Source: the human T2T-CHM13v2.0 reference genome, Homo sapiens | Length of the DNA stretch: 64,000 bases | Assembly (NCBI RefSeq): GCF_009914755.1 | Contig: NC_060928.1 | Reading direction: 5' to 3' (one strand) | Shown here: one piece after another, positions 42,474-53,169 of the stretch | Layout of the letters: each line of letters begins with the position of its first letter | How positions within the stretch are numbered: position 1 is the first letter of the stretch | The notes under the pieces: model-generated | The model's database searches: none | The model's input: the letters and a program-made list of their open reading frames with translations, nothing else | What the model was told of the DNA's origin: nothing | Translations under genes and position numbers: made by a program

Positions 42474-44738
42474 AGACTGTCTACACTGTGAAGAAACTGC
42501 ATCAACAGGCAAAATAACCAGCTAGCATCATAATGACAGGATCAAATTCACACATAACAATATTAACCTTAAATATAAACAAGATAAATTCCCCAATTAA
42601 AAGACATAGACTGGCAAATTGGATAAAGAGTCAAGACCCATTAGTGTGCTGTATTCAGGAGACTCATCTCATGTGCCAAGACACATATAGGCACAAAATA
42701 AAGGGATGAAGTAATATTTAACAAGCAAATGGGAAAAAAAAGCAGGGGTTGCAATCATAGTCTCTGATAAAAAGGGACTTTAAAACAACAAGATAAAAAA
42801 GACAAAGAAGGGCATTACATAATGATAAAGGGATCAATGCAACAAGAAGAACTAACTATCCTAAATATATATGCACCCAATAGAGGAGCATTCACATTCA
42901 TAAAGCAAGTTCTTACAGGCATACAAAGAGACTTAGACTCCCAAACAATAATAGTGGGAGACTTTAACACCCCACTGTAAATATTAGACAGATCAATGAG
43001 ACAGAGTATTAACAAGGATATTCAGGATTTGACCTCAGCTCTGGAACAAGCTGACCTAATAGTCCTTTACAGAGCTCTCCACCCTGAATCAACAGAATAT
43101 ACGTTGTTCTCAGCACCACATCACATTTATTCTAAAATTGACCACATAATTGGAAGTAAAACACTCCTCAGCATACACAAAAGAATGGAAATCATAACAG
43201 TCTCTCAGACCACAGTGCAATCAAATTAGATCTCAGGATTAAGAAACTCACTCAAAACCACACAACTACATGGAAACTGAACAACCTGCTCCTGAATGAC
43301 TACTGGGTAAATAACCAAATGAAGGCACAAATAAATAAGTTATTTGAAACCAATGAGAACAAAGGCACAACATACCAGAATATCTGGGACGTAGCTACAG
43401 TGTGTTTAGAGGGAAATTTATAGCACTAAATGCCCACAGGAAAAAGTGGGAAAGATCTTAAATCCACACCCTACCATCACAATTTAAACAACTAGAGAAG
43501 CAAGAGTACACGAATTCAAAAGCTAGCAGAAGACAAGAAATAACTAAGATCAGAGCAGAACTGAACGAGACAGAGATGCGAAAAACCCTTCAAAAAATCA
43601 ATGAATCCAGGAGCTGGTTTTTTGAAAGTATTAACAAAATAGATAGACTGCTAGCCAGACTAATAAAGAAGAAAAGTGAGAAGAATCAAATAGACACAAT
43701 AAAAAAATGATAAAAGGGATATCAGCATTGATCCCACAGAAATACAAACTACCATTAGAGAATACTATAAACACCTCTATGCAAATAAACTAGAAAATCC
43801 AGAACAAATGGATAAATTCCCGGACGCATAGACCCTCCCAAGACTAAACCAAGAAGTCAAATCTCAAAATAGACCAATAACAAGCTCTGAAATTGAGGCA
43901 GTAATTAATAGCCTACCAACCAAAAAAAGCCCAGGACCAGACAGATTCACGGCTGAAATCTACAAGAGGTACAAAGAGGAGCTGGTACCATTTCTTCTGA
44001 AACTATTCCAAACAATAGAAAAAGAGGGACTCCTCCCTAACTCATTTTATGCGGCCAGCATCATCCTGATACCAAAACCTGGCAGAGACACAACAAAAAA
44101 GGTAAATTTCAGGCCAATATCCCTGATGAACATTGATGTGAAAATCCTCAATAAAATACTGGCAAACCGAATCCAGCAGCACATCAAAAAGCTAATCCAC
44201 CATGATCAAGTTGGCTTCATCCCTGGGATGCAAGGATGGTTCAACATACACAAATCAAAAAATGTAATCCATCCCATAAACAGAACCAATGGCAACAGCC
44301 ACGTGATTATCTCAATAGGTGTGGAAAAGGCCTTTGATAATATTCAATACCACTTCATCCTAAAAACTCTTAATAAAATAGGTATTGATGGGATGTATCT
44401 CAAAATAATAAGAGCTATTTGTGACAAACCCACAGTCAATATCATACTGAATGGGCAAAAGCTAGAAGCATTCCCTTTGAAAACTGGCACAAGACAAGAT
44501 TGCCCTCTCTTACCACTCCTATTCAACATAGTATTGGAAGTTCTGACCAGGGCAATCAGGCAAGAGAAAGAAATAAAGGGTATTCAATAGGAAGAGAGGA
44601 AGTCGGTGCACTCACCTTTGCTCATATGTAAGGACAGACCCTTCTATAGAAGTACCTTACCTTGCTGAGAATCAAAAAGAAAATGTTATATCCAAGTGCA
44701 ATTTCTTTTGTGGCACCACAACTTTATATATAACAATT

Positions 44739-44756
44739 TGGGGGCTCACCCATGAT
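44739..44756 (+). other. Primer binding site, tRNA-Pro-like
   Basis: TGGGGGCTCACCCATGAT vs Pro PBS TGGGGGCTCGTCCGGGAT. Confidence 0.75.
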
Positions 44757-45137
44757 TACATTCCCCTCCAGGGATGGTCTCTGGTTCTCTCTTGTGAGGA
44801 GGCGCACCCTGCTCCCTTGTGGCGGCCTCAGAAGTGAGAAATCTGAGCCCACCCAGTGCAAGGAATAACCCAAACTCTCAGCAACACGAAAAAAAAAATG
44901 GCCAGCAACCTAGCTTAAAGGATCCTCACACACTTGGTGACAACTCTGTGCACAGATCAAGGAAGGAGAAGCCACGGGAGCTGGTAAAGTATTTCCTTGG
45001 TGGTCGGGACCAAGGTAAGAAAGCCATGGGGGTGTTCAGTGAAGTACTCCTTGGTCGGGGTGGCTTAAAGGTTAGAAAGAGGTGAGACATCCCCATTCGG
45101 GGGGATTGAACCTCACACACTACTTCCAGTAGTAGAA

Positions 45138-45370
45138 AAGGCAAGAAATTTCCAGTGGGGAAATTGAGCCTCAACACAAAAGGCAAGAAATTTCCAGTGG
45201 GGGATATTGAGCCTCACCCCATAAGGCAAGAAATTTCCATTGAGGAAATTGAGCCTCACCCCAAAAGGCTTTACCCCTAAAGGCAAGAAATTTCCAGTGG
45301 GGAAATTGAGCCTCACCCCAAAAGGTGAGAAATTTCCAGTAAGGGAAATTGAAACTTGAACCTTACCCCA
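45138..45370 (+). repeat. ~42-bp tandem repeat (about 5 copies) in the leader
   Basis: Unit aaggcaagaaatttccagtggggaaattgagcctcacccca. Confidence 0.9.
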
Positions 45371-50570: not shown

Positions 50571-50734
50571 AAGGGGAGGGGTTGTTAGATATGAGTTCTA
50601 AATTTCTTTTCCAAGAATCAATATGTCAGTATGTTCAATTCTTTATCTTCTACTTTTAAACTTAACTTCCTCATAAAGCAACTTTTTTCATTTTAAACTT
50701 AACTTCCTGATAAAGCAACTTTTTTCAATTACCT

Positions 50735-50906
50735 GCTTCACCCTGATTCATTTCAATCACCTGCTCCACCCTGACTCATTCTGATTACCTGCTCCACCTT
50801 GACTCATTTCAATCACCTGCTCCACCCTGACTCATTCTGATTACCTACTCCACCATGACTCATTCTGATTACCTACTCCACCCTGACTCATTCTGATTAC
50901 CTGCTC
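50735..50906 (+). promoter_or_regulatory. 28-bp tandem array of AP-1 motifs in LTR10 U3
   Basis: TGATTCA at 50744 and TGACTCA at 50772, 50800, 50828, 50856 and 50884; exact 28-bp period. Confidence 0.88.
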
Positions 50907-53169
50907 TGTCATAACCATTTTCCCCACAAAACCACTCACCCCGTCACTCTTTAAATTAGCCAGTCAGAATTAGTTTAGCCTGTGTGGCCTAACCCTAGCC
51001 AATAGGGGAATGACACAGCAGCAGGGGCCACGTGCATCAGGGATAAGAACCCCTTCCCCTCCCTTGTTCAAGTGTGCACTCACCATTGCTCCATCTGTAA
51101 GGGTGCACCCTTCTATAGAAGTACCTTGCCTTGCTGAGAATAAAAAAGAAAATTTTTTGAAGAGAGGAAGTCAAATTGTCTCTTTGCAGATAACATGATT
51201 GTGTATTTACAAAACCCCATCGTCTCAGCCCCAAATCTCCTTAAGCTGATAAGCAACTTCAGCAAAGTCTCAGGATACAAAATCAATGTGCAAAAATCAC
51301 AAGCATTCCTATACACCAATAATAGAGAGCCAAATCATGAGTGAACTCCCATTTGCAATTGCTACAAAGATAATTAAATACCTAGGAATAAAACTTACAA
51401 GGGATGAGAAGGACCTCTTCAAGGAGAACTACAAAACACTGCTCAAGGAAATAAGAGAAGACACAAACAAATGGAAAAACATTCCATACTCATGGATAGG
51501 AAGAATCAATATCATGAAAATGGCCATAATGCCGAAAGTAATTTATAGATTCACTGCTATCCCCATTAAGCTGCCACTGACTTTCTTCACAGAATTAGAA
51601 TAAACTACTTTAAATTTCATACAGAACAAAAAAAGAGCCCACATAGCCAAGACAATTCTAAGCAAAAAGAACAAAGCTGGAGGCATCATGCTACCTGACT
51701 TCAAACTATAATACAAGGCTACAGTAACCAAAACGGCATGGTACTGGTACCAAAACAGATATATAGACCAATGGAACAGAACAGAGGCCTCAGAAATAAC
51801 ACCACACATCTACGACTATGACCATCTGATCTTTGACAAACCTGACAAAAACAAGCAATGGAGAAAGGATTCCCTATTTAATAAATGGTGTTGGGAAAAC
51901 TGGCTAGCCATATGCAGAAAACTGAAACTGGACCCCTTCCTTACACCTTATACAAAAAGTAACTCACGATGGATTAAAGAATTAAATGCAAGACCTAAAA
52001 CCATAAAAACACTAGAAGAAAACCTAGGCAATACCATTCAAGACAAAAGCATGGTCAAAGACTTCATGAGTAAAACACCAAAAGCAATGTCAATGAAAGG
52101 CAAAATTAAAGAGCTTCTGCACAGCAAAAGAAACTATAATCAGAGTGAACAGGCAACCTACAGAATGGGAGAAATTTTTTGCAATCTATCCATCTGACAA
52201 AGGGCTAATATCCAGAATCTACAAGGAACTTAAACAAATTTACAAGAACTAAACAAACCACCCAATCAAAAAGTCAGTGAAGAATATGAACAGATCCTTC
52301 TCAAAATAAGACATTTATGCAGTCAACAAACATGAAAAAAAGCTCATCATCACTGGTCAGTAGAGAAATGCAAATCAAAACTACAATGAGATACCATCTC
52401 ACACCAGTTTGAACGGCAATCATTGAAAAGTCAGGAAACAACAGATGCTGGAGAGGATGTGGAGAATAGGAACACTTTTACATTGTTTGTGGGAGTGTAA
52501 ATTAGTTCAACCATTGTGGAAAACAGTGTGGCAATTCTTCAAGGATCTAGAACCAGAAATATCATTTGACCCAGCAATCCCTTTACTGGGTATACACCCA
52601 AAGGATTATAAATCATTCTATTGTAAAGACACATGCATACGTACGTTTATTGCAGCACTATTCACAATAGCAAAGACTTAGAATCACCCAAATGTCCATC
52701 AGTGACAGGCTGGATAAAGAAAATGTGGCACATATACACCATGGGATACTATGTAGCCATAAAAAGGATGAGTTCATGTCCTTCGCAGGGACATGGATGA
52801 AGCTGAAAACCATCATTCTCAGCAAACTAACACAGGAACAGAAAACCAAACACTGCATGTTCTCACTCATAAGTAGGAGTTGAACAATGAGAACATCGAC
52901 ACAAGAAGGGGAACATCACACACTGGGGCCTGTCAGGGGGTGGGGGGCTAGGGGAGGGATAGCATTAGGAGGAATACCTAATGTAGATGACTAGTTGATG
53001 GGTGCAGCAAACTACCATGGCATGCATATACCTATGTAACAAACCTGCACGTTCTGCACATGTATCCCAGAAAAAGTGTAATTTAAAAAACAGAAATAAA
53101 TAAAAACAGAACAACAGCAGTAAAAACAAAATACATAAATTAATTAATTAAAATAAAATAATATAAAAA

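What the first reader, a model, noticed from the sequence alone, without database searches (positions are those of the whole stretch)
44591..51172. HERV-IP element shaped like its RNA: probable LINE-made retrocopy with a cap-derived G and 14-bp TSD
Seen in sequence: the 6.55-kb insert lacks proviral TG...CA ends. It starts at gtgcactcacc (44606), which in the 3' LTR (51074) lies 32 nt downstream of a TATA-like GATAAGA (51042) and downstream of a CCAAT box (50999), i.e. at a plausible transcription start. It ends 14 nt after AATAAA (51139). The structure is therefore R-U5-PBS-internal-PPT-U3-R. One extra G (44605) sits where the 3' LTR has T, and a perfect 14-bp duplication of L1 ORF2 sequence (gaagagaggaagtc) flanks the insert. 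Established: retroviral integrases make 4-6-bp TSDs (5 bp for the neighbouring provirus); L1 target-primed reverse transcription makes longer TSDs and can copy the 5' cap as G; such retrocopies are well described for HERV-W. Inference: a pol-deficient HERV-IP transcript was mobilised in trans by L1 proteins, which I do not recall being highlighted for HERV-I/LTR10. This would also be a route for spreading LTR10 AP-1 enhancers. Caveats: there is no poly(A) tail (it ends aaaatttttt) and the target is not a canonical TT/AAAA site.
Basis: partly seen in the sequence, partly recalled or inferred. Interest (0 to 1): 0.85.

Follow-up and report, generated by a model that had tools for sequence, protein, structure and literature searches.

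The report
RNA-shaped HERV-IP retrocopy inside an L1
This is a copy of an endogenous retrovirus (HERV-IP) whose ends match its RNA rather than a provirus, most likely pasted into an old L1 by LINE-type machinery, and at least eight similar copies lie elsewhere in the genome.

Summary
A 6,554-bp HERV-IP (HERVIP10/LTR10) element at 44605-51158 has the layout R-U5-internal-PPT-U3-R. It is flanked by a perfect 14-bp duplication of L1 ORF2 sequence that is single-copy in uninterrupted L1 paralogues. An extra G precedes the first R base.

- 29 of 29 other 5' ends examined carry U3.
- Eight further RNA-shaped HERV-IP copies were found.
- Two of them are full-length and start at exactly the same nucleotide as the window copy.
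- All eight end at or near the same spot after the poly(A) signal and carry A-rich tails.
- Five have clear 9-18-bp target-site duplications; one more is degenerate, one uncertain, and one has none.

HERV-IP RNA was therefore a LINE-type retrotransposition substrate about 30 million years ago. Reviews call this unique to HERV-W.

The window copy itself is atypical. It has no A tail, and its nick site does not resemble TTTT/AA. That it came from RNA and was not placed by a retroviral integrase is near certain. That L1 made it is likely (about 0.78) but not shown.

Primate orthologues and CAGE or 3'-end data could not be checked.

The parts
41913..44590 (+). Host L1, left part: ORF1 (41913-42446) and ORF2 up to mid reverse-transcriptase domain (43832-44590)
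   Evidence: Pfam Transposase_22 E=3.3e-58, Tnp_22_dsRBD E=2.6e-29, RVT_1 E=6.8e-27 at profile positions 1-145
44591..44604 (+). 5' copy of the 14-bp target-site duplication GAAGAGAGGAAGTC
   Evidence: Only two occurrences in the window; single copy in 3 of 3 uninterrupted L1 paralogues
44605..44605 (+). Extra G, templated neither by the LTR (T there) nor by the L1 target (A there)
   Evidence: Position -1 is T in 29 of 29 other LTR10 copies; the L1 paralogues continue with A after the 14-mer
44606..44689 (+). 5' R, starting at the inferred transcription start
   Evidence: 88% identical over 83 nt to 51074-51156; two other full-length retrocopies start at the same nucleotide
44690..44735 (+). 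U5, ending in ..CA
   Evidence: R-U5 alignments to other LTRs end at query position 123-134, i.e. window 44728-44739, in 34 of 39 3' LTRs
44736..50570 (+). Internal region of a pol-deleted HERV-IP variant: gag MA remnant 45343-45978, integrase C-terminal remnant about 48350-48460, env TM remnant 49973-50536. No protease, RT, RNase H or integrase-core match
   Evidence: Pfam: Gag_MA E=0.0017 (below its cut-off), MLVIN_C E=1.5e-7, TLV_coat E=4.5e-7, no family for 16 of 19 ORFs. The same architecture is seen in copies with normal LTRs
50571..50581 (+). Polypurine tract AAGGGGAGGGG
   Evidence: Read from the sequence; it lies directly before the point where alignments to other 5' LTRs begin
50583..51073 (+). 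U3, present only at the 3' end. It holds a 28-bp x 6.4 tandem array (50728-50906) with five TGACTCA motifs, CCAAT at 50999 and the TATA-like GATAAGA at 51042
   Evidence: No second U3 match anywhere in the window. It lies within the RefSeq 'enhancer' 50317-51516 (hub annotation)
51074..51158 (+). 3' R with AATAAA at 51139-51144 (ATTAAA in 24 of 29 relatives). It ends 13-14 nt after the hexamer with no A tail
   Evidence: The main tail-addition site in seven tailed retrocopies corresponds to window 51154
51159..51172 (+). 3' copy of the 14-bp target-site duplication
51173..51344 (+). Host L1 ORF2 continuing (reverse-transcriptase domain)
   Evidence: RVT_1 profile positions 148-193 in ORF 51144-51344

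Best explanation
A full-length, unspliced transcript of a pol-deleted HERV-IP provirus was reverse-transcribed directly at a staggered break in an older L1 and fixed there about 30 million years ago. The transcript started at the LTR10 transcription start, the G 31 nt after the TATA-like box. It was cleaved 13-14 nt after the poly(A) signal. The agent was most probably the LINE-1 ORF2 protein acting in trans by target-primed reverse transcription. Shown here: the ends have the shape of the RNA, integrase did not make the junctions, the 14-bp duplication is real, and classical L1-type HERV-IP retrocopies exist. Inferred: L1 made this particular tail-less copy, and the extra 5' G comes from the cap. 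One consequence is that the copy has no 5' U3 promoter but carries U3, with its AP-1-motif tandem array, to a new locus at its 3' end.
For: (1) Ends. The insert starts at R and ends at R, and U3 occurs only once in the window. Among other genomic copies, 29 of 29 5' ends have U3 before R and 34 of 39 3' ends have R-U5.
(2) Start site. Position -1 is T in 29 of 29 relatives and +1 is G in 28 of 29. GGATAAGAA is exact in 20 of 29. Two independent full-length copies (chrX:138,164,106 and chr2:213,891,778) begin at the same G with no U3.
(3) End site. Eight other copies stop at R and are followed by A-rich tails. Seven were found by the R-end-plus-A10 pattern, against 0 hits for the reversed control. 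The eighth is chrX. The window copy's last 13 nt match the family's sequence up to that point except for one A>T.
(4) L1 hallmarks in the class. Duplications of 17 bp (perfect), 18, 15-16 and 13 bp (one mismatch each) and 9 bp. The four longest start with A-rich sequence; three of them follow T-rich target sequence. Six of the eight are 5'-truncated.
(5) The 14-bp duplication is single-copy in L1 paralogues. Retroviral integrases make 4-6 bp (established knowledge).
(6) Age. The terminal branch is 0.062, against a family median of 0.063. The two R copies differ by 12%. Published age is about 30 My for HERV-I/LTR10 (Ivancevic 2024, passages read) and 30-40 My for HERVIP (Vargiu 2016, passages read).
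Against: This copy has no A tail at all, whereas all eight sister copies have one. That comparison is biased: six of the eight were found with a pattern that required a tail, and only two were found without that requirement.
The inferred bottom-strand nick site reads ..TCTTC/CTAT... This does not resemble the L1 endonuclease consensus TTTT/AA (recalled). The primer end has no complementarity to the U-rich RNA end.
Exact-match searches for other tail-less R-ended copies found none: one search gave 2 hits and one search gave 1 hit, all ordinary U5 variants. The tail-less form is therefore a single case.
The start and cleavage sites are inferred from retrocopies and motifs, not from CAGE or 3'-end sequencing.
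No primate orthologue could be examined.
Confidence: 0.78

Rival explanations
1. The copy was RNA-templated but not made by standard L1 endonuclease-primed reverse transcription. A HERV-IP RNA lacking an A tail (deadenylated or never tailed), or its cDNA, was captured during repair of a pre-existing staggered break. The reverse transcriptase could have been L1's acting without its endonuclease, or another reverse-transcribing polymerase.
For: No A tail, a non-consensus nick site, and no primer-template complementarity at the 3' junction. These are the features recalled for endonuclease-independent L1 insertions.
Against: Endonuclease-independent events as described (recalled: Morrish 2002) usually lack duplications and are 3'-truncated. 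Here the duplication is a clean 14 bp, the RNA 3' end is intact, and the copy is full-length with an extra 5' G. The same family has eight classical L1-type copies of similar age.
Confidence: 0.17
2. It is an ordinary integrase-made provirus whose 5' U3 and 3' U5 were later deleted.
For: Truncated LTRs do occur: 3 of 39 other 3' ends are cut inside U3 or U5 (L043, L073, L076).
Against: Deletions cannot create a 14-bp duplication of flanking L1 that is single-copy in paralogues. Both breakpoints would have to fall exactly on the positions used by eight other retrocopies. There is no trace of a 4-6-bp duplication.
Confidence: 0.01
3. It is a DNA-level copy (segmental duplication, gene conversion or templated repair) of part of another HERV-IP locus.
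For: None specific. Repair synthesis can insert foreign DNA at breaks.
Against: No other locus shares the flanks. The nearest relatives are only 92% identical (L039). A DNA template gives no reason for both ends to fall at the RNA start and cleavage sites, or for an untemplated G.
Confidence: 0.02

Closest known systems
HERV-W processed pseudogenes made by LINE-1 (Pavlicek 2002 and Costas 2002, cited but not read; Grandi & Tramontano 2017, PMC5537654, passages read)
   Same: R-U5 ... U3-R layout colinear with the viral RNA, duplications in the 5-15-nt range quoted there, promoterless 5' end, frequent 5' truncation in the class.
   Different: A different retroviral group (HERV-IP/LTR10) and a handful of copies rather than more than two thirds of the group. 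The window copy lacks the poly(A) tail and the TT/AAAA motif that the review lists as signatures.
Cellular processed pseudogenes and full-length L1 insertions carrying an extra 5' G (recalled: Lavie 2004, listed in the reference list of PMC5537654)
   Same: The copy starts at the capped 5' end, has one untemplated G, and has a long duplication.
   Different: The template is a 6.5-kb retroviral genomic RNA, and there is no A tail.
Endonuclease-independent L1 insertions (recalled: Morrish 2002)
   Same: No A tail and a non-consensus target.
   Different: Those usually lack duplications and are 3'-truncated. This copy has a perfect 14-bp duplication and an intact RNA 3' end.
Canonical HERV-IP (HERVIP10/LTR10) proviruses
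   Same: 81-92% identity to other genomic copies over the aligned stretches, apart from one divergent 70% segment, and the same pol-deleted internal architecture as several copies with normal LTRs.
   Different: No 5' U3, no 3' U5, no TG..CA ends, and a 14-bp rather than 4-6-bp duplication.

Membership tests
LINE-1-made retrocopy (processed pseudogene) | 5' end at the transcription start of the source RNA (full-length copies) | tested here: met
   Starts 31 nt after the TATA-like box at a T|G step. Two other full-length copies start at the same nucleotide. No CAGE data were available.
LINE-1-made retrocopy (processed pseudogene) | 3' end at the cleavage and polyadenylation site | tested here: met
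   Ends 13-14 nt after the hexamer, 4 nt beyond the site used by seven tailed copies.
LINE-1-made retrocopy (processed pseudogene) | Poly(A) tail between the insert and the 3' duplication | tested here: not met
   TTTTTT abuts the duplication directly. All eight sister copies have tails.
LINE-1-made retrocopy (processed pseudogene) | Target-site duplication of about 7-20 bp | tested here: met
   Perfect 14 bp, single-copy in L1 paralogues.
LINE-1-made retrocopy (processed pseudogene) | TT/AAAA-like endonuclease target | tested here: not met
   The pre-insertion top strand reads ..AATAG|GAAGAG... The chr4:82.6M, chr2:219.3M and chr6:44.0M copies do have T-rich|A-rich targets.
LINE-1-made retrocopy (processed pseudogene) | Dependence on L1 ORF2 protein | not testable with these tools
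   Needs experiment.
Integrase-made provirus | Two complete LTRs (U3-R-U5) with TG..CA ends and a 4-6-bp duplication | tested here: not met
   No 5' U3, no 3' U5, and a 14-bp duplication.
HERV-IP (HERVIP10 / LTR10) group | Sequence homology of the LTR and internal region to other group members | tested here: met
40 scored 5'-region matches at 77-88%. 39 scored 3'-region matches at 88-92%. Gammaretrovirus-type integrase C-terminal and env TM remnants.

The most novel reading that the evidence does not exclude
The window copy never had an A tail. It would then be a germline record of LINE-type, or other, reverse transcription primed on a tail-less (deadenylated, possibly U-ended) Pol II transcript at a non-consensus nick, still giving a clean 14-bp duplication and a cap-derived G. 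That would be a poly(A)-independent route for inserting long RNAs. More broadly, HERV-IP would be a second HERV group mobilised by L1, with retrocopies that map its transcription start and cleavage sites to the nucleotide and that spread its AP-1 enhancer array without any provirus.
Probability: 0.25. Interest if true: 0.65.

Novelty: new variant of a known kind. Interest (0 to 1): 0.5.

Why it matters
Reviews state that HERV-W is the only HERV group mobilised by LINE-1 (PMC5537654, passages read). A large HERV census did not separate retrocopies from proviruses (PMC4724089, passages read). This study finds at least nine RNA-shaped HERV-IP copies in one genome, so the HERV-W claim is too strong.

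The copies have practical consequences:
- They give a nucleotide-level, sequence-only map of the LTR10 transcription start and poly(A) site.
- They are promoterless at the 5' end, which matters for locus-specific expression studies.
- Most still carry U3. Seven of nine include the AP-1-motif tandem-array region. The window copy's U3 lies under a RefSeq-annotated enhancer. L1 therefore provided a minor second route for spreading LTR10 regulatory sequence.

The tail-less window copy is a natural test case for how strictly LINE-type insertion needs poly(A). The effect is small in scale: nine of roughly 2,300 LTR10 elements (count from Ivancevic 2024). It is also broadly expected, because L1 can copy any expressed polyadenylated RNA.

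Tried and rejected
- Erosion of a normal provirus was rejected because the L1 paralogues carry the 14-mer only once.
- The masked stretches 47564-48187 were suspected to be Alu insertions. They are AT-rich internal sequence shared with other copies.
- I looked for microhomology that could explain priming without a tail. The primer end ..CTCTTC has no matching stretch at the RNA 3' end or in the following U5 (reading). The 4-nt AAGT shared by the end of the duplication and the end of U3 is out of register by 2 nt, so I treat it as chance.
- Further tail-less R-ended copies were sought with exact-match patterns. Searches returned only ordinary U5 variants.
- Further R-start copies were sought. 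One search gave 6 hits, all with U3. In one search, 100 of 169 matches were listed and 69 were not shown, so more may exist.
- A variable-gap tail pattern found 3 copies, none of them new.
- Literature: searches found no paper describing HERV-I or HERV-IP retrocopies. Pavlicek 2002 (PMC155283) is not held and may discuss other families.
- The PBS identity and the neighbouring provirus's 5-bp duplication were not tested.
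Full report
**1. The observation**

The sequence is as described.
- GAAGAGAGGAAGTC occurs at 44591-44604 and 51159-51172 and nowhere else in the window on either strand.
- Between the two copies lie 6,554 bp. They begin G (44605) then GTGCACTCACC (44606), and they end ...AATAAAAAAGAAAATTTTTT (51158).
- The first 82 nt (44606-44687) align with 51074-51156 at 88% identity over 83 columns. The rest of the 3' LTR has no second copy in the window.
- The flanks are a single L1 in the same orientation. L1 ORF1 domains lie at 41913-42446. The reverse-transcriptase profile is matched at positions 1-145 just left of the insert and 148-193 just right of it.
- Three uninterrupted L1 paralogues, fetched from the same genome, read straight through this spot with one copy of the 14-mer. 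It is exact in two and has one mismatch in the third.

The 14-bp repeat is therefore a true target-site duplication. It is neither a chance match nor a product of deletion.

**2. What the element is**

Alignment to other genomic copies places the 3' LTR start at 50582/50583 (TG...), directly after a polypurine tract at 50571-50581. U5 ends at about 44735 (..CA). The layout is therefore G + R (44606-44689) + U5 + internal + PPT + U3 (50583-51073) + R (51074-51158).

Of 19 plus-strand ORFs scanned, only three gave Pfam matches:
- a weak gag matrix match at 45343-45978, E=0.0017, below the curated cut-off;
- an MLV-type integrase C-terminal domain at about 48350-48460, E=1.5e-7;
- an env transmembrane part at 49973-50536, E=4.5e-7.

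No protease, reverse transcriptase, RNase H or integrase core was found.

The same shortened architecture is collinear with copies that have normal LTRs. For example, L032 (chrX:36.88M) aligns with 46310-51156 at 87.6% over 4.9 kb. A longer copy (L033, chr20) has about 2.5 kb where the window has about 0.6 kb. The RNA therefore came from a pol-deleted variant lineage, and the deletion is not specific to this locus. The soft-masked stretch 47564-48187 is AT-rich internal sequence, not Alu.

**3. Are the ends the ends of the RNA?**

I searched the window's own assembly. It is searchable, but only the 40 best candidates per query are scored.

*5' side.* All 29 other loci fetched with the R-U5-leader probe have U3 directly upstream of R. 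Across those 29:
- the base before the window's first R base is T in 29 of 29, and the first base is G in 28 of 29;
- the TATA-like GGATAAGAA is exact in 20 of 29 and begins 31-32 nt upstream;
- the poly(A) hexamer is ATTAAA in 24 of 29 (the window's 3' copy reads AATAAA);
- the next 13 nt read AAGAAAATTTTAT in 18 of 29.

The window's last 13 nt match that string except for one A>T. The insert therefore stops 13-14 nt after the hexamer with no gap in the alignment.

*3' side.* I examined 39 other proviral 3' ends:
- 34 have R-U5;
- 3 are cut elsewhere (L043, L073, L076);
- 2 stop at the end of R (L040, L049).

Both of the last two are followed by A-rich tails and unrelated flank.

**4. Sister retrocopies**

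*chrX:138.164-138.170M (L065).*
- It starts GTGCACTCACC at exactly the window's first nucleotide, with no U3.
- It ends GAAAATTTTT followed by AAATT and a run of A.
- It is flanked by AACTTTTGG (7-9 bp, depending on where the tail ends) inside an A-rich tract.

*chr4:82.612-82.614M (L066).*
- It is 5'-truncated at the equivalent of window 49465.
- It ends GAAAATT followed by A10.
- It is flanked by a perfect 17-bp duplication that begins GAAAA after CT, a near-consensus L1 target.

*Pattern search.* A pattern of the R end plus A10, with up to 3 mismatches, gave 7 genomic hits against 0 for the reversed control. All six new loci show the U3 TATA-like box, then R, then GAAAATT, then an A-rich tail, then unrelated flank.

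| Locus | 5' end | Duplication |
|---|---|---|
| chr2:219.29M | truncated in U3 | 15-16 bp, one mismatch, after TTT |
| chr6:44.02M | truncated | 18 bp, one mismatch, after TT |
| chr6:87.26M | truncated | 13 bp, one mismatch |
| chr7:142.16M | truncated in U3 | uncertain |
| chr8:91.33M | truncated | none of 10 bp or more found |
| chr2:213.892-213.898M | full-length | degenerate, about 14 bp, 10 of 14 matching |

The chr2:213.89M copy was recognised as full-length by a context-printing pattern search. Its R starts at the same nucleotide, preceded by non-U3 sequence ending in G.

*Tally.* There are nine RNA-shaped HERV-IP copies: three full-length with one shared start nucleotide, and six 5'-truncated. 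Eight of the nine have A tails.

*Caveats.*
- Six of the eight tailed copies were found with a pattern that required a tail.
- One search listed only 100 of its 169 matches.
- The exact or near-exact patterns miss diverged copies.
- Nine is therefore a lower bound, and the tail frequency is biased upward.

**5. Mechanism**

The R-to-R shape cannot come from retroviral reverse transcription. That process always regenerates U3-R-U5 at both ends, and no standard intermediate has these ends (established knowledge). The 14-bp duplication is outside the 4-6-bp range of integrases. The copy must have been primed at the 3' end of the RNA at the target itself.

In primates the known agent for that is LINE-1 ORF2 protein acting in trans. 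The sister copies show its signatures: tails, 13-18-bp duplications, T-rich|A-rich targets and 5' truncation.

The G at 44605 is templated neither by the LTR (T in 29 of 29) nor by the target (A). An extra 5' G is a recalled feature of full-length L1-type copies and is attributed to the cap. I cannot test that origin.

The two R copies differ by 12%. The terminal branch is 0.062, equal to the family median of 0.063. Both fit insertion during the group's activity about 30 million years ago (passages read).

In the tree the window copy sits with two chrX proviruses (support 88/92). The chrX and chr4:82.6M retrocopies sit with a chr5 provirus (support 97/97). More than one source lineage was therefore copied (30 rows, none dropped).

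**6. What does not fit**

This copy alone has no A tail: six T's abut the duplication. The bottom-strand nick inferred from the duplication reads ..TCTTC/CTAT... This does not resemble TTTT/AA (recalled consensus), and the primer end cannot pair with the U-rich RNA end.

Complete decay of a tail seems unlikely, because sister copies of similar age keep runs of 7-13 A. That comparison carries the ascertainment bias noted in section 4.

Exact-match searches for other tail-less R-ended copies found none. I therefore rank the possibilities as follows:
- a LINE-type event first (0.78);
- an RNA-templated insertion at a pre-existing staggered break, made by L1's reverse transcriptase without its endonuclease or by another polymerase, as the serious rival (0.17);
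- an eroded provirus (0.01) and a DNA-level copy (0.02), which are effectively excluded.

**7. Comparison with what is known**

The closest known class is the HERV-W processed pseudogenes. The review I read in passages lists their signatures as R-U5/U3-R ends, a poly(A) tail, a TT/AAAA motif and a 5-15-nt duplication. It states that HERV-W differs from all other known HERV groups in being mobilised by L1 (PMC5537654).

Vargiu 2016 (passages) notes that retrocopies were not separated from proviruses in its census of 139 HERVIP chains.

Five literature searches found no description of HERV-I or HERV-IP retrocopies. Pavlicek 2002 is not held and Costas 2002 was not read, so earlier mention cannot be excluded.

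As a class, the HERV-IP copies meet the L1-retrocopy criteria. The window copy meets four of the six criteria that could be tested here and fails two (tail and target motif). I therefore describe it as working like an L1-made retrocopy and as a tail-less variant, not as a textbook member.

**8. Consequences and verdict**

The copy has no 5' promoter, but it brought U3 to this locus. U3 holds a 28-bp x 6.4 array with five TGACTCA motifs at 28-bp spacing. This is the AP-1 tandem-repeat region studied in LTR10. It lies within a RefSeq-annotated enhancer, 50317-51516 (hub annotation).

Seven of the nine retrocopies include that region.

It extends a phenomenon thought to be limited to HERV-W. The scale is small, and L1 copying of an expressed RNA is expected in principle, so interest is moderate (0.5). 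The tail-less junction is the part that remains truly unexplained.

Noticed in passing
G000 chr2:219.2887M (L083+L077) and chr7:142.1582M (L086+L080): Two independent 5'-truncated HERV-IP retrocopies start within about 4 nt of each other, at the CCAAT-box region of U3 (equivalent to window 50961-50964). This could be a second, upstream start site giving a roughly 200-nt LTR-only RNA, or it could be chance.
   Followed up: partly
G000 chr5:173.19M (L048), with L040 and L049: The chrX and chr4:82.6M retrocopies group with one provirus (support 97/97). The window copy groups with two chrX proviruses, L038 and L039 (support 88/92). At least two source lineages therefore fed retrocopies.
   Followed up: partly
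window 10696-11194 and 19216-19726: A direct repeat pair, 89.6% identical over 511 nt, is probably the LTRs of another provirus. It is not LTR10, since the window's LTR probe did not hit it. A RefSeq 'enhancer' (10466-11047) overlaps its 5' repeat.
   Followed up: no
window 50728-50906: A 28-bp unit repeated 6.4 times carries five TGACTCA motifs exactly 28 bp apart. This is the variable tandem-repeat AP-1 region described for LTR10.
   Followed up: partly
window 46278-48207 compared with L033 (chr20:0.84M): The window copy belongs to a shorter variant. About 2.5 kb present in a longer copy is replaced by about 0.6 kb. The AT-rich stretch 47184-48207 found no match in that longer copy, where about 1.1 kb occupies the same gap. 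Other copies with normal LTRs share this layout, so it predates the retrocopy.
   Followed up: partly
G000 chr8:91.329M (L093+L088+L082): This tailed, 5'-truncated HERV-IP retrocopy shows no duplication of 10 bp or more, and it holds an extra stretch of about 140 nt relative to the window copy.
   Followed up: no
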